From NCBI GenBank assembly GCA_938074205.1, contig CALJES010000012.1:192080-256079 (forward strand): a stretch of DNA of 64,000 nt, in the 5' to 3' direction. Positions 40,809-60,554 of this stretch are shown piece by piece. The notes under the pieces are model-generated. The model was not told the origin of the DNA, did no database searches, and worked only from the letters and a program-made list of their open reading frames with translations. The DNA is from an uncultured bacterium (lineage in GTDB: Bacteria; Armatimonadota; UBA5829). Made by a program: the position numbers and the translations under genes. Every line of letters starts with the position of its first letter. Position 1 is the first letter of the stretch.

Positions 40809-42098
40809 TTACAAATTCAGGCACTTCCCAAGAAGGTAGTGTTTTCTATCTGGGTAGAATATGGTAACCTTGCCGTTTTCTTCCACCAGGCTGCAATAAG
40901 TTGCCACCTGTGTCCTATTGGTTCCGGGAGCGGGAATCCAATTCGTGTCTGCGAAAATCCGCGGTTGCTCAAATCGGATCGGGTGATCCTTTTCACCGGG
41001 AATCTCATATCCAACCGTGATCCAAGCAGGGTTGCGGACATTAGCCGCATCTGTCGGTCCTTGTCCGCCGTGTCCGGAACCGTCGTTGTTGTAAAAAATG
41101 AGAACGAATCTTCCATCTCTAAGTTTGTACAGCGGACACGGGGCAAGCGGGTTCAAGATAGGCTTACCTCCCGGTTCGTACCTGAGCGGTCTTGGCTCAT
41201 CCCAACTGCGTCCGTCGTCCTCGGAAAGAGCGTAGTAGATGCAGCCTCGCAAGGTTCGGAAAACGCAAATTAACCTTCCATCTGATAGTGGCTGCACAGT
41301 TGGTTCCTGCGCAACGCTTATGCCAGGTCTAAACGGGCTTTCGACTCGGAGACCGTGCGGTGACTTTGGCCAGGTAGTTACGATAAGCTTGCGGGGGTCT
41401 GCTTCCGTAAGGATATTTTCAAATCGTAGGAAACAGATCTCAGAATCGCGTTCCAACATTCCTACGCCTGGGTCGACAGCGTTCGACGCCCACCGTGTGA
41501 AACCGGCTAGAACATGCCCGGACAGAAGTACCACAGGGTTCTGGTAAACAATCCACGTCTGTGGTACGGTGGGGTCAGGATTGCTTATGGCATTCGGCTC
41601 GATAGGGTAATCGAAGGCTTCGGGACTCCATGTCTTGCCGTCATCGTCTGAGTAGCGCCCTCGCAACACCCCGGTGTCCGCTGCACGCGCATCGTCGATT
41701 CCTACGTTCTTGTTGTAGAAGCACCAAATGAGTTGTCCGGCTACAATGAGGAATTGCCAGCTAGCCATTCCGGTTCCCGGTTCATCATCCGGACTGGCAC
41801 CGTCAATTACCTTAGGTGGTGACCAAGTCAACCCGTTGTCCTCAGACCGGCTGTACATTACCCTTTGGTCCGGAGCACCTTCGTAAGTGGCAGACGTCCA
41901 CGTTGCCAAGTAAGCCCCTTTGGGTGTCAAAATGGCGTTGAGGTGTTGATTAGTTTCGCCGGCCGCTTTGACAGGGTCAGGTACATAGACTACGATATCA
42001 GGTTCAGTTCGCAACCATTCTTTTTCCAAATTCTCCAATTCGCACTCCTCCTTATTATGGCAAGGCCAGTATGTGACCCATGCAGTAGCTCTTGACAC
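40809..42098 (-). CDS. BNR/Asp-box repeat beta-propeller glycosidase (sialidase-like)
   Basis: Three Asp-boxes: SEDNGLTWS, SDDDGKTWS and SEDDGRSWD. No obvious N-terminal signal peptide. Confidence 0.7.
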   Translation of the reverse strand: MSRATAWVTYWPCHNKEECELENLEKEWLRTEPDIVVYVPDPVKAAGETNQHLNAILTPKGAYLATWTSATYEGAPDQRVMYSRSEDNGLTWSPPKVIDGASPDDEPGTGMASWQFLIVAGQLIWCFYNKNVGIDDARAADTGVLRGRYSDDDGKTWSPEAFDYPIEPNAISNPDPTVPQTWIVYQNPVVLLSGHVLAGFTRWASNAVDPGVGMLERDSEICFLRFENILTEADPRKLIVTTWPKSPHGLRVESPFRPGISVAQEPTVQPLSDGRLICVFRTLRGCIYYALSEDDGRSWDEPRPLRYEPGGKPILNPLAPCPLYKLRDGRFVLIFYNNDGSGHGGQGPTDAANVRNPAWITVGYEIPGEKDHPIRFEQPRIFADTNWIPAPGTNRTQVATYCSLVEENGKVTIFYPDRKHYLLGKCLNL

Positions 42099-42205: not shown

Positions 42206-42952
42206 ATGTCTACGGGCTGCAAGCACGGCGGGTTTACCCTTATCGAGCTGCTGGTTGTAATAGCTATCATCGCTATATTGGCCGCGATACTCTTCCCTGT
42301 CTTCATATCCGCAAGACAAAGTGCCGCACTCAGTAAGTGTCAAAGCCACCAGAAAGAGCTGGTTCAAGCTCTCATGATGTACACGGATGCCTGGAACGGC
42401 AAGCTTCCTTGGATACAGTTCCTGACCTACCACGATTTCGGCGGCACGCTTGCTCGGTATCCGTGGGTTCATATGGTTCGACTATATGAGCCCTATGTCA
42501 AAAACTTCAACATATTGCTTTGTCCTCAGAAATACTACGACAACTGGTATCGTGAGGTTAGGCATCAAGGATACGCTTACAATGAATGCCTCTGCGGGCG
42601 GTTAAGTACTACTCCAATTAAGACTTCGAGATTCGATGTTTATTTCATCGCCGACAGAGACGGCCGTCTGTTGGCTAGTATACCTAGAGTTTCCAGGACC
42701 CCGGCTTTCTTTTGCGCAATGAGTTTTCATCCGGCTCCCGGCGATTACGGTCCCAACGGGTGGGGCTGGGAGCCCATAGATGCGCTGAACTCGTATAGGA
42801 TGACCAATGCTCACAGAGGCGGTTCGAACTACGCGTTCCTGGACGGGCACGTGCGTTGGTTGAAACCTGCGGGAGGAGGCATATACAATGCGACAGATGG
42901 CTTGGACTACGATGGCAACGGCACGCTGGGCGACTCCTTGGTCTTGAGGTAG
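42206..42952 (+). CDS. Prepilin-type N-terminal cleavage/methylation-domain protein with DUF1559 (H-X9-DG)
   Basis: GGFTLIELLVVIAIIAILAAILFPVF pilin-like N-terminus; C-terminal HRGGSNYAFLDGHVRWL (H-X9-DG-like). Confidence 0.8.
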   Translation: MSTGCKHGGFTLIELLVVIAIIAILAAILFPVFISARQSAALSKCQSHQKELVQALMMYTDAWNGKLPWIQFLTYHDFGGTLARYPWVHMVRLYEPYVKNFNILLCPQKYYDNWYREVRHQGYAYNECLCGRLSTTPIKTSRFDVYFIADRDGRLLASIPRVSRTPAFFCAMSFHPAPGDYGPNGWGWEPIDALNSYRMTNAHRGGSNYAFLDGHVRWLKPAGGGIYNATDGLDYDGNGTLGDSLVLR

Positions 42953-42966
42953 GAGGGCGAAATAAC

Positions 42967-43713
42967 ATGGCGCGCAGACAAACTCTTGGGTTCACGTTGA
43001 TAGAACTTCTCGTCGTAATTGCAATCATTGCAATCTTAGCAGCGGTATTTTATCCGGTGCTTTTGAGTGCGAAGGAAAAAGCCAACACCGGTAAGTGCCA
43101 GGCGCACATGAAAGAGCTATGTGCCGCGCTGTTCGCATACATCGATGACTATGGCGGCAAGATGCCCAGCATGCAGTTCCTGAGCTGGTGGAAGTATGGC
43201 GATTTCGAAGTGCACCTGTACGATAAGTACGTCAAGAACAACGAGATAGTAATCTGTCCACAGCCTTACTACGACACTGCACATTATCCGCCGAGTATTC
43301 GTCGAATGGCTTATGGCTACAACGAGACCTTAGTGGATCCACTACCTAACTATTTCTACACGGCGCCCGGTGCCTACGGGCGGATTGAGGTATATGGGCC
43401 GCCAAAGTATTACATGCCTGGCCGAGGACGTATGCTAAGTGAAATCCGCACACCCACCCGTACGCCGGCGTTTTTCTGCACGTTCTCACACCACGTATCT
43501 CCAGACGGCCTTGCGCGGGGGTTCGGGTGGGGCGCCGACGATGCAGTGAATCCAAAGCGACATCCAAATAGGCACGGCAATGGTTCGAATTATGCCTTTC
43601 TGGACGGGCACGTGCGGTTCTCACCTCCAGCTGGCGGGATATTCTGTGTGCCTATCGAAGGTCTAGACTACGACGGCAACGGCACTTACGGCGACAAGCA
43701 GATCATGCGCTGA
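42967..43713 (+). CDS. Prepilin-type/DUF1559 paralog (tandem duplicate); ATG 42967 chosen instead of ORF-track 42856
   Basis: MARRQTLGFTLIELLVVIAIIAILAAVFYPVL and C-terminal HGNGSNYAFLDGHVRF. Collinear similarity to 42206..42952 throughout. Confidence 0.8.
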   Translation: MARRQTLGFTLIELLVVIAIIAILAAVFYPVLLSAKEKANTGKCQAHMKELCAALFAYIDDYGGKMPSMQFLSWWKYGDFEVHLYDKYVKNNEIVICPQPYYDTAHYPPSIRRMAYGYNETLVDPLPNYFYTAPGAYGRIEVYGPPKYYMPGRGRMLSEIRTPTRTPAFFCTFSHHVSPDGLARGFGWGADDAVNPKRHPNRHGNGSNYAFLDGHVRFSPPAGGIFCVPIEGLDYDGNGTYGDKQIMR

Positions 43714-44953: not shown

Positions 44954-47008
44954 GTGTGTAGGGCAGTACTGATCACTTTCCTCTTTCTCGCAGTGACGAT
45001 TTTCGCCAAAATACCTGTTGCATGCGGTGCGCAAGTGCTGGATGCTTTTTTCGTCGCTGACCGACCGTTTCCTGAGTTTGTGCATTACTGGTCGGATTTG
45101 GCGCCGGAGGAGTGGTCGACTGCTGCGGAACGCGAAAGCCGCCGAACGCTGGGGGGATACATCCATGTTTATGTTAGAAACGATGCTGCCGACCGAGTGT
45201 CGATCGAAGATGTTTGCCTCCAAGGGATAAGCTTAAAGCAGGCAATAGCTTTCTCCGGACAGCGCAAGTTCAAGAAAGTGGCACAAGCCGCGAGCATATT
45301 CTTCTCCAAATTGTCCGACTCTGAACGCGGTGTTCTTGTGGCTGCAGGCGAGCCTGTCTGGTATAAGATAGATCCGATTACCGTGGAATCGGGCAACACA
45401 GCGGGTGTGGTGATCAGGCTCCGCCAACAACCGGCTACGCCAAGCATTGACGTAACCCTGAAGCTGAACAGCGGAAATCTCGATGTCTCCGTAGTCACAT
45501 CTCCGAGAACTTCACTCGTAAAGAGCCTCAGCTTCGGCAGCGGTTTGAAAGAAGCGTATTGTTACCTAGAAAAAGGCGACGGTGTGTCCTCAGTTAAGCA
45601 GATACTGTTGGACGGCCGTGATATAACGGCGGACTGCACAATCGCTTCAGACCCAAACATCCGCATACTCCCTGTGGTTTGTAGACTGTCGGATCCGCTT
45701 AAGCGCGGTTCTTTCCACACGTTCACCGCCGTGTTGTCTGACGGTTCTAAAGCCACAGCGGGACTTCGATGTTGGGACACAGAGCTATTCTACGGGATAT
45801 GGGGTGCTAGGTCGGGAAGGTCTGGAGATGTCGCACTTGCTCGCCGTTTTATCGACGAACTGGCCGAACACAACATCAACGGTCACATGATAACCATTGC
45901 TTCCGATGCGGTTCGGGAGTACATGAACAGTCCCGAAGGACGCCGCCACATGGAGCAGCTGGGTATTCGCAGAGTAGTTATGGATCCCGCCAACGAACTG
46001 AAGGCTGCCGCTTACTATTTGGCTGACGAACCGGATACGGCTGACTACAAAGTCGAGGGTGTGCCCCCGGGTTCCAAAATCGGTTGTCTCGGGCAAGGTC
46101 TGATACAGCGAGCGCACGAACTGCGCAGCATTGATTCATCTACGCCGAACATGCTCAACGTAGACATGACCTTTAAACCAGATAACTGGTATACGTACGG
46201 CCAATTGCCAGACATATTTGCGGCAGATCCGTATTTCCAAAGTCATCTCGCCGATGTTTACTATCGAAAACCCTATAGAATCCCTGCCTACACTAAGGCT
46301 ACCGAAGTCTATGCTGTCGCCAGCTGTGCGTATAGCGCATGTGCGCCGAAACCCTTGCACATAATTCTTAACAGCACACAGGTCGTGCAGAGCGATTGGA
46401 AGTTTCGATTCGCGACACCGGTTGAAAAACGAATCGAGGTGTATTATGCCTTAGCTGCCGGAGCGAAAGCGGTTTCATACTGGTGGTTTGTCCCACTAAG
46501 TGCAAGAGGCGTTGGCTCTAATGGGTTAGGAGCCGATACGCCTGAGGCGCGAGCTCTGTGGCGCGAGATAGGACTGCTGGGTGCTGAAGTTCGGACGATC
46601 GGTTCTCTAATCTCACGAAGCTGTCCGGCTGAGGTGCACGTGGAAACCGACCATAGATTGTGGGTAAAGAGCCTGATTTCAGGAACCGACACTGCTCTAT
46701 TCCTAGTTGTGAACGACGACTATGCCTGCGACAGGGTTGGTACTGTTATCAAACTTGTCGACGAGGCTAAACTGAAAATATCACTGCCAAAATGGCTTAT
46801 ACCAACAGCCGTTTTTGAAGTTTCTTGCGACGGCGTAAGTGACGTGAAATGGCAAGCTGAGGGATCAAATCTCGCAGTTGATCTGGGCCGAGTCAATGTT
46901 ACGCGACTCATCGTAGTCACGAGCAACTCAGCACTTCGGGGCGAACTGCAGGAGATCTACCAGTCGAAATTTGCGCAGAACGTAGCGAAACTGCGTTCCA
47001 AGCAATGA
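44954..47008 (+). CDS. Secreted hypothetical protein (684 aa)
   Basis: Signal peptide MCRAVLITFLFLAVTIFAKIPVACGAQ; no motif I can assign. Immediately upstream of the giant surface-protein gene. Confidence 0.4.
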   Translation: MCRAVLITFLFLAVTIFAKIPVACGAQVLDAFFVADRPFPEFVHYWSDLAPEEWSTAAERESRRTLGGYIHVYVRNDAADRVSIEDVCLQGISLKQAIAFSGQRKFKKVAQAASIFFSKLSDSERGVLVAAGEPVWYKIDPITVESGNTAGVVIRLRQQPATPSIDVTLKLNSGNLDVSVVTSPRTSLVKSLSFGSGLKEAYCYLEKGDGVSSVKQILLDGRDITADCTIASDPNIRILPVVCRLSDPLKRGSFHTFTAVLSDGSKATAGLRCWDTELFYGIWGARSGRSGDVALARRFIDELAEHNINGHMITIASDAVREYMNSPEGRRHMEQLGIRRVVMDPANELKAAAYYLADEPDTADYKVEGVPPGSKIGCLGQGLIQRAHELRSIDSSTPNMLNVDMTFKPDNWYTYGQLPDIFAADPYFQSHLADVYYRKPYRIPAYTKATEVYAVASCAYSACAPKPLHIILNSTQVVQSDWKFRFATPVEKRIEVYYALAAGAKAVSYWWFVPLSARGVGSNGLGADTPEARALWREIGLLGAEVRTIGSLISRSCPAEVHVETDHRLWVKSLISGTDTALFLVVNDDYACDRVGTVIKLVDEAKLKISLPKWLIPTAVFEVSCDGVSDVKWQAEGSNLAVDLGRVNVTRLIVVTSNSALRGELQEIYQSKFAQNVAKLRSKQ

Positions 47009-47250: not shown

Positions 47251-50200
47251 TTGGTTATGAGAAAAACCAATTTGATACTTCTGGCATTACTTGCCTCATT
47301 TGCAGCCGGCGCACAACTCGCCCATGCACAAGTCCCCGTAATTGCTATTGATCCTCCAGTGCCTTCTGTCGTCATGACAGACGGGCCTAATCCTGCACCG
47401 GATGTCGTTTTCAATGTTACGGTTGATAACGCCACCAATATAAATATTACGGCGGGCGACATTACCGTTCGTACGAGACCTCCCAATGTACGACAGGCGG
47501 CAAACCAACAGGCTGCTGCGGATCGGATAGTTGTTTTAAACGGCGATACACCGAACCCAATGGTTATCCTTGAGGGGGCCGGGCTCCATGGTGATGGTTA
47601 CATCTGGATCGAGATTGCAGGTTCGACGTGTTCAAATGATGAGGGGGATGCGAAAGACGCAGTGAGTCCAGAGCTTCGCGTCGACGCGACGCCTCCGGAT
47701 GTAAGGCTGACCGCGGCTGACGGCAATCCAACTGTGGCTAAGCCTTGTGATCCAACGACCGGTATGCTCACGTTCGTCGTCGAGTTCATCGACGAAAGTG
47801 AATCGGTTACCGGTTTCGACGCGGACGATGTTCTAATCAACGGCGTACCTGCTACTGATCCGGAGTGTTACGCCGTTTCTGCGCATTTTCCGTCTGGAGC
47901 AAGCTGTTTAGGTCCTGCCTGTGAAGTTTCGGGTTCGGGCAAAAGTTACTTAGTTGTGATCTATCCTCGCACCGATGGTCCGTTTACAATCCAGATCGCG
48001 GCGAAGGCAGCGACAGATGACGTTGGATGGGAGAGCACGGCTTCGAATGAAGTGACAGTTCCATACACAGATGCTCCACGGATCAATATACAGGCGCTCT
48101 CGCCTCCCAATACCAACAGCAAAACAATCAATTTTATGGTGGAGTTCAGTAAGCCTGTTCACGGCTTCGGACTTGGAGACGTAAGGGTAGATCCGCCCAC
48201 CACTCCGGGTGCGGCAGGCGGTACAAAAACGGTCGTGGTGACTGGTACCGGCGAACCTCTTTCTGAGGGACAGGTCTATTACGTCGGCGTAAGCGGATGC
48301 ACTTATTCCGGTTTTGTCAGATTGTTCGTAATGTGCAGTCAGGATAATCCCGATCAATCAGACTGGTGGTCTTCAGAGGATTCGTGTACAGAACCTCAGG
48401 TCAATTATGACGGTACCCCTCCGGACTCTCTAACCATTACCACTCCCCCCGACTTGCCCCAGCCTCCAGAGTATTCCGGCACGTATACAACTGCAAACAC
48501 CAAGATCGACATTGCGGGAACGGCACACGACGACGTAGGTATTTCTCGCGTTACTTGGAGCAACGACCGAGGGGGAAGCGGTCCGTGCGTTGGCACTTCA
48601 AACTGGTACGTGCGAGGCATCTATCTGAAGCCTGGGAGAAACTTGATAACCATTACTGCTGCTGACGCTGCCGGTAATACGCTAAGCTACTATTTGACCG
48701 TCAATTGCACAAACGAATACTCGTCTGAGACCGTTGATGCATACAGGGAAGACATCGAACGCGTTGGCGAGTACTCTTCGATTACGCTAGATGCAAGCGG
48801 TAATCCCAGAATTGCCTACTACAAGTACATCAATGATACTCATGGTGTTCTCAGATACGCCTACTACAATGGGCAGGGTTGGCACATCGAAGACGTAGAT
48901 GGTAACAGTCCCGGAAGTGAGGATGATAACGTTGGGCGATATACGTCCATAAAAGTCGATGCCCAAGGCAACCCTCACATAAGCTACTACGATGTTACCA
49001 ACGGCAATCTGATGTACGCTGTGTGGCGGGCTGGCACCTGGCAGATTACGACAGTCGACGGCTATATCAGCGCCACGGACGACGTCGGTCAATTTACATC
49101 GCTGGCACTTTATAATGGGCTGCCGCGCATCGCGTACTATGACGTGGCGAAGGGAGATCTGAAATACGCTAGCTATGATGGCACCAAGTGGACAAAGACT
49201 GTCGTCGACAGCACTGGCGATGTCGGCAGATTTGCTTCACTTGCGCTGGATCCGAGCACCGGGTTACCACGGATAGCCTACTATGACTCCACAAACAAGG
49301 ATTTGAAATATGCTGCTTACGACGGCAGCGCGTGGAACATATCAACAGTCGCATCGACTGGCGATGTGGGCCAGTACTGTTCGTTAGCGTTGGATTCTGA
49401 TACCGGATATCCGCGCATTGCTTACTACGACAACACGAATAAGGACCTCGTATATGCTGCCTGGGACGGCAGCGAATGGCGTTTCAGCACTGTCGATTCC
49501 GATGGTGACGTTGGGCGATATTGTTCGCTTGCTCTTTACAATGGGCTGCCCCGGATAGCCTACTACGATGGCGAGTCAAGCAGGAAAGATCTCAAGTACG
49601 CCGAAGGCAATGCTGCTGTTGACCCAACGTGGACGCTAACGGTCTTGGACGACGGCGTTGCAGAGGTGGGAGTCAGCACATACGACGTGGGTCAATATGC
49701 TTCTTTGGCTCTCGACTCCGCAGGCGGAGCGCACATAAGTTACTATGACGCAACCACGTCGCCTTTGCGCAATACGCTCAAATATATCTATCGAGCATCA
49801 GGGCCCACGTGCGTTGTAGAGCCTCTTAGCCCCAGCCCTACAAATATGTCACCTGTAAGCTTCAAAATTACTTTTTCCAATCCTGTCACAGGTTTTACTG
49901 TATCGGACATACTTGTGAGCGAAGGCACGGCAGGTGCGCTGACGCAGCTAGACAGCACCGGCTACCGGTTCGAGGTTTATCCCAATTCGATACCTGCTCC
50001 GGGTAACTCGTATGTGAATGTGAGAGTTAAAGTTCCGGCTGGTGCGGCTCGCTATGGGACGTTTGACAATCTGGAGTCTAACGAAGCACTTATTCAAGTC
50101 GACCGAATTCCGCCTACCGTTCAGGTGAATCAGGATTACGTGCAGCCAGATCCTTCCGGCGCAAATTCACCGAACGTAGTTTACTTTACTGCAGTGTTCA

Positions 50201-55967: not shown

Positions 55968-56432
55968 ATGCGATGTGGTCGTTTTGAACTGAGTTTGATA
56001 CACTATGTTCTAGTAGCAGTTCTGACATTATTATCACTTATTGGTGCCGGATGTGGTGGCGGCGGTGCTGGGGTGGTGGATAAGGAGCCGCCGACAGTGT
56101 TCATTGTGAGCTTCACAGGACTGCTGCCCGCTACGGGTGGAACTGCAACTATAGACGTCGATGCTACGGATGATGTCGGTGTAGTGCGTGTGGAAGTTAA
56201 GGTAACAAAACCAGATGGCTCGTCGTCGCTCGTAACAGCGACGAAAACAGGCAACATTTGGCGTGCACAATTCGACGCACCTGCCAATTCCGGGACCCAA
56301 GCTGCGGTATATAGGTTCGTTGCCTACGCTTACGATGCTGCCGGAAAGGTGGCAACATCGGAAGAACGGTCCTTCCAAGTTAGTGCCCCGGATATACCGC
56401 CACCTCCTCCTCCGTTTGTGACAGGCAAATAA
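55968..56432 (+). CDS. Small putative lipoprotein carrying the same Ig-like capping domain as the giant protein (ORF track 55839..56432; ATG 55968 preferred)
   Basis: MRCGRFELSLIHYVLVAVLTLLSLIGAGC signal/lipobox-like N-terminus, then ATGGTATIDVDATDDVGVVRVEVKV..YDAAGK, which parallels AGTAHDDVGISRVTW..ADAAGN and GEASDNIGLAVVTW..FDQAGN in the giant protein. Pro-rich tail PDIPPPPPPF. Confidence 0.5.
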   Translation: MRCGRFELSLIHYVLVAVLTLLSLIGAGCGGGGAGVVDKEPPTVFIVSFTGLLPATGGTATIDVDATDDVGVVRVEVKVTKPDGSSSLVTATKTGNIWRAQFDAPANSGTQAAVYRFVAYAYDAAGKVATSEERSFQVSAPDIPPPPPPFVTGK

Positions 56433-56448
56433 GACTGTTGATTTCCAT

Positions 56449-57261
56449 CTAAACACCGGCGAATGCGCTGAATCCTCCGTCGACGGTGAGCACACTGCCA
56501 GTGACAAATGATGCACGGTCGGAGAGTAGGAAAAGCGCGGCTTCCGCTATTTCCGACGGCTCACCGTATCTGCCCATAGGCACGTGCGCTATTATAGTGT
56601 GACCTCGTTCCGTCGGCTCTCCTGTATTCTCGTCGACAAGCAGAAAGCGGTTCAGATTTGTAAGCACGAATCCAGGAGCGAGAGCGTTGACGCGTATGTT
56701 AGGCGAGTAGTTTCTGGCCATGTGGACGGCGAGCCAACGGGTGAAGCTTGTTACGGCAGCCTTAGCGTTTGAGTAACCTACTACCCTTGTCAAAGGGCGG
56801 CAGCCTGCAACGGACGATATGTTGACAATGGCTCCGCGCTGCTTTTGCGCGAATATTCGGCCGACAGCCTGACACGGCACGACGACCGCCTTGTAGTTGG
56901 CTGCGAATATCTCGTCAAAAGCTTCTGATTCTATATCAAAAAACTCCAGCGCGTCTGAGGTGGTGCAACCAGGCGTTGATCCTCCTGCCCCGTTTACTAG
57001 TAGGTCGACCGTTCCGAACTTTGCAAGCGTCGAGTCGAGTGCCGATTCCACAGACGGGCGTACTGCGGCATCACACTTGACAGCTAGAGCTCGCCCCCCG
57101 GCTTTCTCAACGTCATTAGCGGTATTCTGCGCGGCCTCGAGGGACAAATCCCAAACTGCAATGGCTGCGCCTTCCTCAGCAAGTCTTCTCGCCGTTTCAC
57201 CGGCTATCGCACCTCCGCCGCCGACTACAACAGCTATCTTGTTCCTGAATCCGTAGTCCAT
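56449..57261 (-). CDS. SDR-family oxidoreductase
   Basis: VVGGGGAIAGETARRL (TGxxxGxG-like), NGAG, a catalytic S..YSNAKAAV (YxxxK) and PG.V.T. Confidence 0.8.
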   Translation of the reverse strand: MDYGFRNKIAVVVGGGGAIAGETARRLAEEGAAIAVWDLSLEAAQNTANDVEKAGGRALAVKCDAAVRPSVESALDSTLAKFGTVDLLVNGAGGSTPGCTTSDALEFFDIESEAFDEIFAANYKAVVVPCQAVGRIFAQKQRGAIVNISSVAGCRPLTRVVGYSNAKAAVTSFTRWLAVHMARNYSPNIRVNALAPGFVLTNLNRFLLVDENTGEPTERGHTIIAHVPMGRYGEPSEIAEAALFLLSDRASFVTGSVLTVDGGFSAFAGV

Positions 57262-58495
57262 GGTTTCTTTCGACTCCTTGAATGATTTCGCGGTTTCCTC
57301 GTCTAATCAGTCTTATGCTATGCGCTCATTCGAAAAGTTAGCTGAGCTTTACCGCAAAACCCTTCTGGAAGACGTGGTGCCTTTCTGGGAGCGGTACACG
57401 GTTGATCCGGATGACGGCGCGATAAACAATTGTGTGGATGACTATGGAAATGTGCTTTCATATGATAGGTACCTATGGTCTCAGGGACGAGCTCTTTGGA
57501 CGTTTTCGGCTCTCTACAACCGCGTGGAGCCCAGGCAGAGCTGGCTTGATATTGCGCGCCGTGTGGCACAGTATCTTTATTCGCATGGTCGTGATGATTC
57601 AGGGCGGTGGGTATATCGCCTAAGCAAAGACGGTGAAGTTCTAGATGGGCCGATCAGCATTTACGTAGACGGCTTCGTACTGAACGGGATGGGAGAGTAC
57701 TATCTAGCAACCGGCGACACCCGCGCGGCGGACATTGCAAGAGAAACTTGGAAAAGCGTTTCAGAGAGGTTAGCCAACCCCGGTAGCTACAGCATAGCCC
57801 CATACGAATTGCCGCCCGGAGCCCAAACTTTGGGCATTCCGATGATCTTCTCTTTCTTTTTTTGGAACCTGGGCCAGGCGCTTCGAACCGAAGAGATAAA
57901 GCAAGGAGGTCTGCGGTTGGCAGAGTGGCTGCTGCCCACGTTCTACTCCAGAAAGCATGATGCGGTAATGGAGTTTCGCAGCATATACGGCGGTCCATTA
58001 GCCTTGCCACAGGGCAGGGTAGTGATCCCGGGGCACGTGATTGAAGCTATGTGGTTTCTTATATCGATATTCGAGGCAGCCGATTCATCGCGGTATCATC
58101 AGGCCATTGCTGAGTGCTGTCGCCTGATTCGCCGGCACATTGAGCTAGGCTGGGACGACGACTACGGCGGAATCCGACTTGCTATAGACATTGAAGGGCA
58201 AACGCCTGTAGCCTGGCAGAAAGCAGATTGCAAGCCCTGGTGGGTTCACACAGAGGCACTTGTTGCGACATTGTATGCTTATTTTTACACGAGCGACGAG
58301 TGGTTCTTAGACTGGCATCACCGAATAAAAGATTATGCCTTCTCCAAATATCCGGTTCCGACAGGGGAGTGGAGACAGTGGCTTGACCGATACGGCTCTC
58401 CCTCGTCAAGTGCGGCTCTGCCGGTAAAGGATCCATTTCACCTGCCGCGCGCCCTGATATACTCGGTTGGTATACTTGAGCGGTTGCTTTCATGA
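57260..58495 (+). CDS. N-acylglucosamine 2-epimerase (AGE)-family (alpha/alpha)6-barrel isomerase/epimerase
   Basis: 411 aa with periodic W/Y-rich helices (YLWSQGRALWTFSALY..WFLDWHH) consistent with the AGE/cellobiose-2-epimerase/sulfoquinovose-isomerase family. Confidence 0.5.
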   Translation: MVSFDSLNDFAVSSSNQSYAMRSFEKLAELYRKTLLEDVVPFWERYTVDPDDGAINNCVDDYGNVLSYDRYLWSQGRALWTFSALYNRVEPRQSWLDIARRVAQYLYSHGRDDSGRWVYRLSKDGEVLDGPISIYVDGFVLNGMGEYYLATGDTRAADIARETWKSVSERLANPGSYSIAPYELPPGAQTLGIPMIFSFFFWNLGQALRTEEIKQGGLRLAEWLLPTFYSRKHDAVMEFRSIYGGPLALPQGRVVIPGHVIEAMWFLISIFEAADSSRYHQAIAECCRLIRRHIELGWDDDYGGIRLAIDIEGQTPVAWQKADCKPWWVHTEALVATLYAYFYTSDEWFLDWHHRIKDYAFSKYPVPTGEWRQWLDRYGSPSSSAALPVKDPFHLPRALIYSVGILERLLS

Positions 58496-58544: not shown

Positions 58545-60554
58545 ATGACGGACGGGACCATAAGCGAAAGAGTCGCGGAAAACAAGAGGGTTGCAGATTT
58601 TGCATACGCAACACGTAACCGAGTAACAGCCCGAGCCGTTCTTCTTTCGATTATCTTAATGGTTGCCAATGACTACTGGATAGTTCAGCTCGAGGTAGTC
58701 AGATACTCGTTTGCCACCTACGCTGCTCCATTCTACAACTGCATTTTCACGTTGTTGGTTTTGACGGCAATAAACGCGATCATCAGGCGGCGTTTCCCAT
58801 CAATTGCGTTCACACGCGTCGAAATGATGACCGTTTACATAATGCTTTCGATATCCAGCGCGGTGTGTTCGCATAATATGATGGAAATACTGGTGTCGAT
58901 GATGGGCTATGCCCATTTCTTTCAGACACCGGAGAACAGATGGGGCGAACTCTTCGTGAACCGTTTGCCAGGCTGGCTTACCGTCGGTGATCATACTTCA
59001 CTTTACAACTTCTACTACGGCAACTCCAGCCTATATAGACCAGAGAACTTCCTTCCCTGGCTTGTGCCCGCACTATGCTGGTCTGTATTCTGTGCGGTTT
59101 TGCTTCTAACTCTACTTTGCCTGAATACTATTCTCAGAAAGCAGTGGGTCGAGTCAGAAAGGTTGACGTTTCCTATTGTTATACTGCCGCTCGAAATGGC
59201 TGATGAGTCGGCGGCGATATTTCGGAACAAGTATATGTGGTTGGGGTTTGCCATTTCGGGTCTTATCACGCTTGTTGCCGGCTTACATTTCCTATACCCA
59301 TCGATACCGTACATACGCATAGTGCGCACCAACATAGGACGTCTCATCACGCAGCCTCCTTGGAATGCTATGGGGGCGATCTCCCTCGGCTTCTATTTCT
59401 GGGCGATCGGGATTGCATTTCTGATGCCTTTGGAACTGTCGTTTTCCTGCTGGGTGTTCTATTGGATTGTGAAGTTCGAACTGGTACTTTCCTACGTGCT
59501 AGGTCTCCACGAGTTGCAGGTGCCCGGGGGCGGATTTGACAGGGGTTATCCTTTCCTGCAAAGCCAGGAGTGGGGGGCTTACATGGGCTTTTTCGTGATG
59601 AGTATGTGGGCTAGTCGGCATTACCTGAAACGAGTGTTCAGGACAGCATTCTTCGGCACTAAGGAAGAAGACGATTCACGCGAGGCTATAAGCTACCGTG
59701 CGGCGATAATTGGTTCGATTGCCGGTTTCATATTCCTAAGCCTTTTTGCCTACGCAATAGGGATGTCCCGATGGGTCATATTTGTATTCTTTTTCTTCTA
59801 CTTCATATTTGCTATTATCTGCAGTCGGATCAGAGCCGAACTCGGCTTTCCTACCCACGACATGCATTTTATGCAACCGCAACATTTGCTCCTTACCGTC
59901 AGCGGCACAGAAAGGTTGGGAACAAATAATCTTATCGGCTTTTCCTTGTTCTTCTGGTTCAACCGGACCTATGCAAGTCATCCGTCCCCTCACCAAATGG
60001 AAGGGCTCAAAATTGCTGAGCGCACTAACACACCCGCGCGCCAATTCTTCACCGCAATGGCGATAGCGTCTATTCTGGCTATGCCTATTGGTTTCTGGAT
60101 GCTGTTGCACACCTACTTTCGTCGAGGCGGGGCGACGGCGAATATGGAGCAGTGGGCTCTGGGCTTCGGCAGCAGCTGCTGGACACAGCTCGAACGATGG
60201 ATAACTCAGCCATTTCCGCCGAACCCCACCGCGATGCTTTTTGTCGGAGTGGGCTTTGGGGTATCCATGCTTCTTGGCTGGTTGAGACTGAGATTCATCT
60301 CATTTCCCTTCCATCCGCTTGCGTATGCGCTTGCTCCCAGTTGGGGAGTCGGCCAACTCTGGATGCCGCTTCTGATAGGTAGCACCGCAAAGTTCTTCAT
60401 TCTAAAATTCGGAGGATTAAAGACCTATCGCCAAGCGTTGCCGTTCTTTTTTGGTCTGATGCTAGGCGAGATAACAGTCGGCAGCCTCTGGACCCTGGGC
60501 GGGATTGCTCTAGACGTGCCCACCTACGACTTCTGGCCCGGCAGGTACGAATAG
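58545..60554 (+). CDS. Large polytopic membrane protein of unknown function (669 aa, at least 14 TM helices)
   Basis: Hydrophobic helices throughout, Trp/Phe-rich; no transporter family signature that I recognise. Confidence 0.45.
   Translation: MTDGTISERVAENKRVADFAYATRNRVTARAVLLSIILMVANDYWIVQLEVVRYSFATYAAPFYNCIFTLLVLTAINAIIRRRFPSIAFTRVEMMTVYIMLSISSAVCSHNMMEILVSMMGYAHFFQTPENRWGELFVNRLPGWLTVGDHTSLYNFYYGNSSLYRPENFLPWLVPALCWSVFCAVLLLTLLCLNTILRKQWVESERLTFPIVILPLEMADESAAIFRNKYMWLGFAISGLITLVAGLHFLYPSIPYIRIVRTNIGRLITQPPWNAMGAISLGFYFWAIGIAFLMPLELSFSCWVFYWIVKFELVLSYVLGLHELQVPGGGFDRGYPFLQSQEWGAYMGFFVMSMWASRHYLKRVFRTAFFGTKEEDDSREAISYRAAIIGSIAGFIFLSLFAYAIGMSRWVIFVFFFFYFIFAIICSRIRAELGFPTHDMHFMQPQHLLLTVSGTERLGTNNLIGFSLFFWFNRTYASHPSPHQMEGLKIAERTNTPARQFFTAMAIASILAMPIGFWMLLHTYFRRGGATANMEQWALGFGSSCWTQLERWITQPFPPNPTAMLFVGVGFGVSMLLGWLRLRFISFPFHPLAYALAPSWGVGQLWMPLLIGSTAKFFILKFGGLKTYRQALPFFFGLMLGEITVGSLWTLGGIALDVPTYDFWPGRYE

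What the first reader, a model, noticed from the sequence alone, without database searches (positions are those of the whole stretch)
47251..56432. 8.7-kb gene for a 2885-aa secreted mosaic surface protein plus an overlapping small 'cap-domain' lipoprotein
One ORF carries a Sec signal peptide and a ~90-aa beta-sandwich 'cap' domain at both ends (aa ~395-480 and ~2605-2690; shared pattern DD(V/I)G(I/V)..V(T/E)W...GGSG.C.GT.NW...G.N.I...A.D.AGN). Between the caps it carries about 16 tandem Big_5-like Ig domains (FSEPV..GF / D.AGN pattern), a 7-blade YYD beta-propeller, a proprotein-convertase P-domain, a cupredoxin-like insert and an unassigned ~190-aa C-terminal domain. The very next ORF (55968..56432) overlaps the 3' end and encodes a lipoprotein-like protein made essentially of one more copy of the cap domain plus a poly-Pro tail. 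This is the accessory-looking centrepiece of the window and resembles S-layer/adhesin-type giant proteins. The specific domain combination, with a P-domain and no protease and with a cap domain shared with a separate small partner, is not something I can match to a described system.
Basis: partly seen in the sequence, partly recalled or inferred. Interest (0 to 1): 0.78.

Follow-up and report, generated by a model that had tools for sequence, protein, structure and literature searches.

The report
Giant surface protein with lipoprotein partner
A conserved 2883-residue secreted protein of an uncultured Armatimonadota bacterium ends in a widespread but undescribed C-terminal domain, and a small lipoprotein gene follows it here and after several unrelated genes with the same domain, which suggests a phylum-specific way of holding large proteins on the cell surface.

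Summary
The giant ORF is real (47251/47257..55908, +). Confirmed: a Sec signal peptide, two related "cap" Ig domains, 16 Ig repeats, a 7-blade propeller, a P-domain without a protease, and a ~196-aa C-terminal domain (CTD). Three details are wrong. The repeats are Pfam Big_12, not Big_5. The small gene (55968..56432) starts 59 nt after the giant's stop and does not overlap it. Its Ig domain is only a remote relative of the cap (no BLAST or HMM match; hhalign 90%).

The gene is core, not accessory. Orthologs of 2792-2884 aa in related Armatimonadota MAGs keep every domain at 63-92% identity, the same as neighbouring genes.

The interesting part is the CTD.
- 1793 cluster representatives carry it, usually at the extreme C-terminus of very different secreted proteins.
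- Named genome hits are almost all Armatimonadota, with several copies per genome.
- It has no Pfam, NCBIfam or PDB match.
- A confident AF2 model (pLDDT 95.7) has no solved structural neighbour.

The small protein belongs to a rare lipoprotein family (Cys-polyGly, one Ig domain, Pro-rich tail). Its gene lies directly downstream of at least seven non-orthologous CTD genes.

Best reading: a CTD/lipoprotein surface-tethering cassette. This is inferred, not shown.

The parts
47111..47140 (+). Promoter-like site (TTGACA-18-CATAAT, 11 of 12 matches) in the 242-nt gap upstream of the giant gene
   Evidence: This is a consensus match only.
47257..47328 (+). Sec signal peptide of the giant protein (aa 1-24, cleavage after AHA)
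   Evidence: read from the sequence. Orthologs keep an equivalent N-terminus.
47329..48408 (+). N-terminal region: one unassigned ~115-aa domain, then two divergent Big_12-like Ig domains (aa 139-271 and 272-384)
   Evidence: Self-HMM gives domain E-values of 1e-9 and 4e-13. No Pfam hit.
48442..48708 (+). Cap 1: Glucodextran_B/Big_7-like Ig domain (aa 396-484)
48724..49821 (+). Seven-blade beta-propeller (aa ~490-855), with the repeat DVG.Y.SLALD..G.PRIAYYD
   Evidence: Seven repeats. BNR_4 at 32.4 bits and a DUF7253 hit. No PDB sequence relative.
49822..51771 (+). First Ig array: 5 Big_12-type domains (aa 856-1505)
51361..51606 (+). ~82-aa insert inside the fifth Ig domain (aa 1369-1450); possibly cupredoxin-like, without Cu ligands
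   Evidence: Absent from ortholog L005. Weak plastocyanin matches at E 0.07. No Pfam hit.
51784..52191 (+). Proprotein-convertase P-domain (Pfam match aa 1536-1640) with no protease domain anywhere in the protein
   Evidence: PF01483, E 5e-13
52192..55047 (+). Second Ig array: 9 Big_12-type domains (aa 1646-2597)
   Evidence: Pairwise identity among 12 of the clearest repeats (all four from aa 945-1419 plus the eight from 1736-2595) is 34-64%. No tandem repeat at the DNA level.
55048..55317 (+). Cap 2: the Ig domain directly before the C-terminal domain (aa 2598-2687)
   Evidence: The same cap-then-CTD arrangement occurs in 76 of 129 CTD proteins.
55318..55908 (+). C-terminal domain (CTD, aa 2688-2883) plus the stop codon. 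It ends in PWRAYWFRALVDCDLILPPPSNQ. The nearly invariant Cys is C2873, at 55873-55875.
55968..56432 (+). Small lipoprotein gene (154 aa). Signal peptide and lipobox ..LIGAG|C29, then GGGG, one Ig domain (aa ~37-140), and the tail APDIPPPPPPFVTGK.
   Evidence: dN/dS against orthologs is 0.07-0.19.

Best explanation
The locus is a two-gene cassette of an uncultured Armatimonadota bacterium.

Gene 1 encodes a Sec-exported, ~2860-residue extended protein. In order it contains:
- an N-terminal head of three beta-sandwich domains, a cap Ig domain and a 7-blade propeller;
- a stalk of 14 Big_12 Ig domains, interrupted by a P-domain;
- a C-terminal module made of a cap Ig domain plus a ~196-aa all-beta domain (CTD).

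Gene 2 follows after 59 nt and is probably co-transcribed. It encodes a small lipoprotein: a lipidated Cys, a poly-Gly linker, one Ig domain and a Pro-rich tail ending in PPPPPPF.

Proposed mechanism: the cap+CTD module is the envelope-proximal end. It docks on the membrane-anchored lipoprotein. That holds the giant protein on the cell surface, with the propeller head projecting outward as a binding module, probably for glycans.

Shown: the domain anatomy, the conservation, the distribution of the CTD family and the gene adjacency.

Inferred: the physical CTD-lipoprotein contact, the surface location, the orientation of the protein and the ligand.
For: 1. The CTD behaves like a shared targeting or anchoring module.
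- 1793 cluster representatives match at E<=1e-3, and 158 at E<=1e-30.
- In 98 of the 150 best hits the complete domain ends within 25 residues of the protein's end.
- These proteins share a conserved terminus, PW.AYW..A...CDL(I/V)LP(P/A)P.
- The proteins are 200-3748 aa long and carry different passengers: Ig arrays, peptidase M6, GDSL lipase, chitobiase-type domains.
- The crude check found a signal-peptide-like N-terminus in 80 of 131 full-length members.
- Genome hits are almost all Armatimonadota, with 2-3 or more copies per genome.

3. The lipoprotein family is rare: about 45 clusters of 139-184 aa among 5.8 billion proteins, and every named one is Armatimonadota.

4. The lipoprotein gene lies immediately downstream, on the same strand, of CTD genes.
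- It follows all giant orthologs.
- It follows non-orthologous CTD genes at L011, L012, L014, L016, L021 and L027-30.
- It follows the CTD gene at L166, which was found starting from the lipoprotein rather than from the CTD.
- All 11 lipoprotein-sized ORFs matched by the lipoprotein HMM in the CTD loci lie downstream on the same strand. The only other matches are Ig domains inside the large proteins themselves.
- 78 control loci that carry generic Big_7-like Ig domains contain no CTD.

5. No promoter-like or terminator-like site lies in the 59-nt gap, and an SD-like GAGGA precedes the ATG.

6. The small gene is under purifying selection (dN/dS 0.07-0.19). Every domain of the giant is conserved across orthologs.

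7. The surrounding genes deal with carbohydrates: a BNR_2 sialidase-like gene, a GlcNAc 2-epimerase, and GH2 in the orthologous loci.
Against: - No direct evidence of binding exists. A model of the complex could not be run.
- Only about 7 of 20 close terminal-type CTD loci have the lipoprotein next door.
- Two members of the lipoprotein family stand alone, without any CTD gene within 7 kb.
- In a related subfamily the CTD is internal, followed by ~255 aa that end in a FlgD_ig-like domain. The domain therefore does not have to be terminal to function.
- The location of the lipoprotein (inner membrane, outer membrane, or which leaflet) is unknown.
- The envelope architecture of this lineage was not examined here.
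Confidence: 0.45

Rival explanations
1. The CTD is a secretion or sorting signal for crossing the outer membrane, analogous to the T9SS C-terminal domain. The adjacent lipoprotein is an accessory shuttle or release factor, not the final anchor.
For: - The CTD sits at the C-terminus of many unrelated Sec-dependent cargo proteins, with several copies per genome and a phylum-restricted distribution. T9SS, PEP-CTERM and similar sorting domains were recognised from exactly this pattern (general knowledge).
- The end motif is strictly conserved and contains a nearly invariant Cys.
- Two prepilin-type genes lie 4 kb upstream.
Against: - There is no match to T9SS CTD models or to any NCBIfam sorting-domain model.
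- At 196 aa it is about twice the size of known CTD signals, and it is a stable, well-packed fold.
- In one subfamily the domain is internal.
- No candidate translocon or sortase gene recurs next to it. The recurring neighbours are lipoproteins, a 620-aa protein and S8 proteases.
Confidence: 0.2
2. The CTD is a ligand-binding module, for example aromatic-rich and glycan- or cell-wall-binding. The giant protein is then a released or self-assembling exoprotein. The lipoprotein is a separate envelope protein that is merely co-expressed.
For: - The conserved positions are rich in Trp, Tyr and Phe: W37, W69, W99, W142, W144, W175, W179 and others.
- Passengers include hydrolases.
- The neighbourhood is carbohydrate-related.
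- Pairing with the lipoprotein is facultative.
Against: - There is no sequence or structural similarity to any CBM or lectin in the PDB.
- The strict end-of-protein position and the repeated same-strand adjacency of a rare lipoprotein family are not explained.
Confidence: 0.2
3. The giant protein and the small protein share the same 'cap' domain and associate through cap-cap (homotypic) contacts, as in an S-layer or adhesin assembly.
For: - Both carry Big_7/Glucodextran_B-type Ig domains with the motif DDVG..V...AYD.AG.
- hhalign gives 90.5% probability between the two profiles.
Against: - There is no pairwise or HMM-level similarity.
- The same generic Ig motif occurs in 78 unrelated metagenome loci that have neither a CTD nor the lipoprotein features.
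- Lipoprotein partners also follow CTD genes whose CTD is not preceded by a recognisable cap. The cap is present in only 76 of 129 CTD proteins.
- No SLH or other S-layer hallmark was found.
Confidence: 0.07

Closest known systems
Giant tandem-Ig 'extender' adhesins of Gram-negative bacteria (e.g. SiiE, LapA/MpIBP-type RTX adhesins)
   Same: Both are very long proteins built from many bacterial Ig-like domains that act as a stalk and carry interspersed or terminal ligand-binding modules. Both are held on the cell surface.
   Different: This protein has a cleavable Sec signal peptide, no RTX or T1SS C-terminal signal and no N-terminal retention module. Its putative anchor is a C-terminal domain of unknown fold. 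Repeat number and sequence are fixed across orthologs and not variable.
T9SS C-terminal sorting domain (Por_Secre_tail) cargo system of Bacteroidota
   Same: In both, a conserved beta-rich C-terminal domain is shared by many unrelated secreted multidomain proteins. The domain is phylum-restricted and occurs in many copies per genome.
   Different: There is no sequence or model match. The CTD is about twice as long, has no solved structural neighbour, and is paired with a small lipoprotein gene. No T9SS component was seen here.
Cohesin-dockerin and SLH-type non-covalent surface anchoring
   Same: The logic is the same: a common C-terminal docking module on diverse passengers, plus a cell-bound beta-sandwich partner.
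   Different: There is no homology to dockerin, cohesin or SLH. The partner is a lipoprotein encoded one-to-one next to the cargo gene. No interaction has been demonstrated.
Kexin/furin-type proprotein convertases (Peptidase_S8 + P-domain)
   Same: It contains a bona fide P_proprotein domain (PF01483, E 5e-13).
   Different: The protein has no subtilase catalytic domain, so the P-domain is used as a stand-alone beta-sandwich within an Ig array.
Pfam Big_12 (PF19078) and Glucodextran_B (PF09136)/Big_7 (PF17957) bacterial Ig domains
   Same: The stalk repeats are Big_12. In relatives, the cap domains that precede the CTD match Glucodextran_B and Big_7 significantly.
   Different: The window's own caps fall below the Pfam thresholds (19-21 bits). 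The Ig domain of the small lipoprotein reaches only Big_7 at 25.2 bits.

Membership tests
Pfam Big_12 (PF19078) Ig repeats | Score above the gathering threshold of the Pfam model | tested here: met
   182.5 bits against a cut-off of 27, 8 stretches. The self-HMM finds 16 copies.
   No Big_5 hit at E<=0.01 on the whole protein or at E<=5 on the segments scanned separately (N-terminal domains, caps, propeller, insert, one Ig domain, CTD).
Proprotein convertase (kexin/furin) family | P-domain present | tested here: met
   PF01483, 49.3 bits against a cut-off of 21, aa 1536-1640.
Proprotein convertase (kexin/furin) family | Subtilase (Peptidase_S8) catalytic domain N-terminal to the P-domain | tested here: not met
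   No Peptidase_S8 hit anywhere in the giant protein.
Cupredoxin | A match to a cupredoxin family, plus the His/Cys/His/Met copper ligands | tested here: inconclusive
   No Pfam hit. Plastocyanin matches only at E 0.07-0.8. Read by eye against the plastocyanin pattern (no residue-level alignment was made), the expected ligand region reads YKFRRKVSPSVSG and has no Cys, His or Met.
BNR/sialidase-type beta-propeller | A match to a BNR-family model, plus Asp-box (SxDxGxTW) motifs | tested here: inconclusive
   BNR_4 scores 32.4 bits against a cut-off of 27.3 on the isolated segment, but 26.7 bits on the whole protein. There are no canonical Asp-boxes; the blades carry DVG.Y.S.A.D..G.P.I.YYD instead.
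S-layer protein (SLH-anchored) | SLH domains or another recognised S-layer anchoring module | tested here: not met
   No SLH hit in Pfam or NCBIfam.
T9SS cargo | C-terminal Por_Secre_tail / T9SS type A or B sorting domain | tested here: not met
   None of 52 CTD sequences hits Pfam or NCBIfam at E<=1.
T1SS RTX adhesin | RTX nonapeptide repeats, a C-terminal T1SS signal and no Sec signal peptide | tested here: not met
   No HemolysinCabind hit. A classical Sec signal peptide is present.
Bacterial lipoprotein (small ORF) | Signal peptide followed by a lipobox [LIVMFWSTAG]2-[LIVMFYSTAGCQ]-[AGS]-C within about 35 residues | tested here: met
   The window has ..SLIGAG-C29. Orthologs have LVAGC, LLAGC or FTAGC, all followed by poly-Gly. 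The test is a sequence pattern only; lipidation itself was not tested.
Candidate new family: Armatimonadota C-terminal domain (CTD) | ~190-aa domain with the motifs MVS.P..P..DP, GRGFW, GWNL.G.PF, AWGW and PW.AYW..A...CDL.LP.P, at or near the protein's end | tested here: met
   The profile built from the window sequence and its five closest hits matches 158 cluster representatives at E<=1e-30. The window's CTD is 37-64% identical to the 51 other members aligned with it. All motifs are present.
Candidate new family: Cys-polyGly Ig lipoprotein partner | 139-184 aa, lipobox-C followed by G3-13, a single Ig domain, a Pro-rich C-terminal tail, and a gene directly downstream of a CTD gene | tested here: met
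   All sequence features are present. The gene lies 59 nt downstream of the CTD gene.

The most novel reading that the evidence does not exclude
The C-terminal domain and the Cys-polyGly/Ig/Pro-tail lipoprotein together form a previously undescribed, Armatimonadota-specific surface-display (protein tethering or sorting) system. It is built on a domain fold that has no solved relative. It is used by a large set of secreted proteins (CTD family 1793 cluster representatives; about 100 of the 150 best hits are terminal-type like the giant), of which this giant protein is one client.
Probability: 0.35. Interest if true: 0.72.

Novelty: new variant of a known kind. Interest (0 to 1): 0.55.

Why it matters
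Armatimonadota are widespread but barely cultured, and how they export and retain surface proteins is essentially unknown.

A C-terminal module shared by about 1800 protein clusters, with a dedicated lipoprotein partner and no detectable relative in Pfam, NCBIfam or the PDB, would have three uses:
- It would define the surface proteome of the phylum by a simple sequence rule.
- It would add a new fold to the catalogue of anchoring and sorting domains.
- It would give a testable handle for envelope biology in this phylum: delete the lipoprotein and see whether CTD proteins are released.

The giant protein itself is an ordinary example of a tandem-Ig surface protein.

Tried and rejected
- Exact-sequence look-up of the small protein found nothing on record.
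- The first AF2 run, with a 6-sequence alignment, was unusable (pLDDT 53.7). It was replaced by a 52-sequence alignment.
- The AlphaFold-database fold libraries (afdb50, afdb_sample) were not available. Fold novelty is therefore judged against the PDB and BFVD only.
The 6-sequence alignment was used instead.
- The metagenome scan with the small-protein alignment mostly picked up generic Big_7-like Ig domains in unrelated large proteins. Only 2 of 80 loci were true family members. The other 78 served as a negative control.
- The upstream 684-aa protein was tested as a possible third cassette member. It has no homolog in the other CTD loci and no Pfam or PDB match, so it was rejected as part of the cassette.
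- S8 protease genes near 8 CTD loci were considered as the 'missing protease' for the P-domain. None is present in this window, so this was not pursued.
- There is no Rfam family and no DNA tandem repeat in the locus.
- Three literature searches for Armatimonadota sorting, S-layer or lipoprotein systems found nothing relevant.
Full report
**Observation**

Amino-acid numbers use the 2883-aa form that starts at ATG 47257.

The 8.7-kb ORF is real: 47251..55908 on the + strand, 2885 aa from TTG. The likely start is ATG 47257, behind an aggagaag Shine-Dalgarno sequence.

The product begins with a classical Sec signal, MRKTNLILLALLASFAAGAQLAHA|QV.

Pfam gives two clear matches on the whole protein and no protease domain:
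- Big_12, E 2e-54, in 8 stretches.
- P_proprotein, E 5e-13, aa 1536-1640.

An HMM built from the protein's own repeats finds 16 Ig domains. One is split by an ~82-aa insert. Seven propeller blades lie in aa ~500-850.

The two 'cap' domains (aa 396-484 and 2598-2687) are 40% identical, E 2e-10. They are the only two copies that a cap HMM finds in the protein. They resemble Glucodextran_B/Big_7/PKD Ig domains below the Pfam thresholds.

The last 196 residues match nothing in Pfam or NCBIfam.

Three details in the finding are wrong:
- The repeats are Big_12, not Big_5.
- The small gene starts at ATG 55968, 59 nt after the giant's stop, behind an SD-like GAGGA. Orthologs have gaps of 56-107 nt. 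There is no overlap.
- The small protein is not another copy of the cap. BLASTP finds nothing better than E~1. The cap HMM finds no hit at all. Only profile-profile comparison shows a remote relationship (hhalign 90.5%, against 1.6% for Big_12).

The 'cupredoxin-like' insert remains unproven (plastocyanin at E 0.07, no Cu ligands). It is a discrete element, because one ortholog lacks it.

**Origin and conservation**

Homologs of the small protein (56-90% identity, 148-157 aa) come from Armatimonadota MAGs.

In every locus recovered, a 2792-2884-aa ortholog of the giant gene lies directly upstream. The whole neighbourhood is syntenic: a 682-aa unknown protein upstream, then an SDR, a GlcNAc 2-epimerase, DUF6785/6784, a GFO_IDH gene and GH2 downstream.

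Each domain of the giant is positionally conserved at 63-92% identity. That equals the divergence of the flanking metabolic genes, 71-93%. The repeats are old: 34-64% identical to one another and with no DNA-level tandem repeat.

The gene is therefore a core, slowly evolving gene of this lineage. It is neither an accessory island nor a variable adhesin.

The small gene is under purifying selection (dN/dS 0.07-0.19).

**The C-terminal domain (CTD)**

A word-index search with cap2+CTD found only 8 proteins. Some are 466-486-aa proteins made of a signal peptide, one N-terminal domain, a cap and the CTD.

An exhaustive profile search found far more: 1793 cluster representatives at E<=1e-3 and 158 at E<=1e-30.

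Among the 150 best hits:
- 98 carry the complete domain within 25 residues of the protein's end.
- These end in PW.AYW..A...CDL(I/V)LP(P/A)P.
- About 40 have the domain followed by a constant ~255-aa tail, which ends in a FlgD_ig-like domain.

The proteins range from 200 to 3748 aa. Their passenger domains vary: Ig arrays, peptidase M6, GDSL lipase, chitobiase-type domains. A cap-type Ig domain directly precedes the CTD in 76 of 129 cases.

A scan of one genome per species returned 73 loci. Almost all of those with a taxonomic name are from Armatimonadota, with 2-3 copies detected in several genomes. Weak partial hits occur in Rhodothermales, Krumholzibacteriia, Zipacnadia and others.

None of 52 members hits Pfam, NCBIfam or a PDB sequence.

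One Cys, 7-10 residues from the end, is kept in 149 of 154 CTDs. It is often the only Cys in the domain.

**The small lipoprotein**

Orthologs and more distant relatives share one architecture:
- a signal peptide and lipobox;
- a Cys followed by 3-13 Gly;
- a single Ig domain;
- a Pro-rich tail, often ending in ..PPPPPPF or ..PPSPPF.

The family is small: about 45 clusters of 139-184 aa in 5.8 billion proteins. Every named member is from Armatimonadota.

An HMM of the family hits the ORF immediately downstream, on the same strand, of non-orthologous CTD genes at L011, L012, L014, L016, L021 and L027-30. All 11 lipoprotein-sized ORFs it matches in the CTD loci lie downstream on the same strand. 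Its only other matches are Ig domains inside the large proteins themselves.

A reciprocal test started from three new lipoprotein family members:
- One (P0177) lies 38 nt downstream of a 1815-aa protein whose last 190 residues are a CTD, E 3e-71.
- Two weaker members (P0191, P0192) stand alone.

Seventy-eight control loci with generic Big_7-like Ig domains contain no CTD.

Conversely, only about 7 of 20 close terminal-type CTD loci have the lipoprotein next door.

The association is therefore strong but facultative.

In more distant CTD subfamilies, other partners follow the CTD gene:
- CarboxypepD_reg lipoproteins in Armatimonas loci.
- A ~620-aa protein in 25 loci.

**Interpretation**

The best-supported reading is a two-gene cassette.
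- The giant protein is exported by Sec.
- It consists of a head (N-terminal domains plus the propeller), a ~14-domain Ig stalk with an embedded P-domain, and a cap+CTD foot.
- The co-transcribed lipoprotein, fixed in a membrane by its lipidated Cys, is proposed to dock the CTD and hold the giant protein on the cell surface.
- The absence of promoter-like and terminator-like sites in the 59-nt gap is consistent with co-transcription.

The anatomy, conservation, family distribution and adjacency are shown. The contact, the location and the orientation are inferred.

Rival readings:
- The CTD is an outer-membrane sorting signal, analogous to the T9SS CTD.
- The CTD is an aromatic-rich ligand-binding module, and the lipoprotein is functionally independent.
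The data speak against this one.

**Comparison with known systems**

The stalk resembles that of giant tandem-Ig adhesins. The secretion signal, the anchoring end and the evolutionary stability all differ.

The logic of the CTD resembles T9SS CTDs, dockerins or SLH modules. All membership tests for those families failed.

The P-domain without a subtilase means the protein is not a proprotein convertase.

**Verdict**

The giant protein is an ordinary member of a known class. The C-terminal domain and its lipoprotein partner form an undescribed, phylum-specific variant of a surface-anchoring or sorting module, possibly with a new fold. Interest is moderate (0.55). The decisive tests are a model of the complex, a whole-genome census, and release assays in a cultivable Armatimonadota.

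Noticed in passing
window 42206-43713 (+): Two adjacent prepilin-type genes carry N_methyl motifs, one with a DUF1559 domain. They are pseudopilin-like and lie 3.5 kb upstream of the giant gene.
   Followed up: no
window 40809-42098 (-): A BNR_2 sialidase-like beta-propeller gene lies here (E 1e-19). With the GlcNAc 2-epimerase gene (57260-58495) it gives the locus a glycan-related flavour.
   Followed up: no
window 44954-47008 (+): A 684-aa protein is encoded directly upstream of the giant gene. It has no Pfam or PDB match. It is conserved in synteny in all ortholog loci (72-76% identity) but absent from the other CTD loci.
   Followed up: partly
window 55873-55875 (giant C2873): A Cys in the terminal motif CDLILPPP is nearly invariant: 149 of 154 CTDs keep it, and it is often the only Cys in the domain. 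It is kept whether or not a cap domain precedes the CTD (the cap has its own conserved Cys). Possible roles are a disulfide, a covalent attachment or a purely structural one.
   Followed up: partly
window 51361-51606 (giant aa 1369-1450): An ~82-aa domain is inserted into a Big_12 repeat. It is present in orthologs L007 and L083 but cleanly absent from L005, the 2792-aa version.
   Followed up: partly
L027-L030, L033-L079 (e.g. L033:2-1219 and L033:1253-3118): In a second CTD subfamily the domain is internal, followed by ~255 aa that end in a FlgD_ig-like domain. In 25 loci a conserved ~620-aa protein is encoded directly downstream. It has an N-terminal membrane segment, an FN3/Ig-like C-terminal part and a Pro-rich end.
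   Followed up: partly
L034:4966-6258, L047:1430-2389 (also L041, L046, L053, L055, L061): In Armatimonas-type loci the gene after the CTD gene encodes a different lipoprotein. It has a CGG lipobox and is built of CarboxypepD_reg beta-sandwich domains.
   Followed up: partly
L014:1467-3476 and 7 other CTD loci: Subtilase genes (Inhibitor_I9 + Peptidase_S8 + PA) lie next to CTD genes in 8 loci. This is of interest because the window's giant protein carries a P-domain without a protease.
   Followed up: no
CTD model m0a49fe758c6a against BFVD: The single structural match is UniProt A0A8D9C8P8, 'putative hemin binding protein' from an uncultured marine phage contig (E 1.2e-5, TMq 0.57, 16% identity). 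The fold may therefore exist outside Armatimonadota.
   Followed up: no
window 58545-60554 (+): A DUF6785/DUF6784 protein (E 7e-157) is conserved at 85-93% identity in all syntenic loci. It is the best-conserved gene of the neighbourhood and its function is unknown.
   Followed up: no
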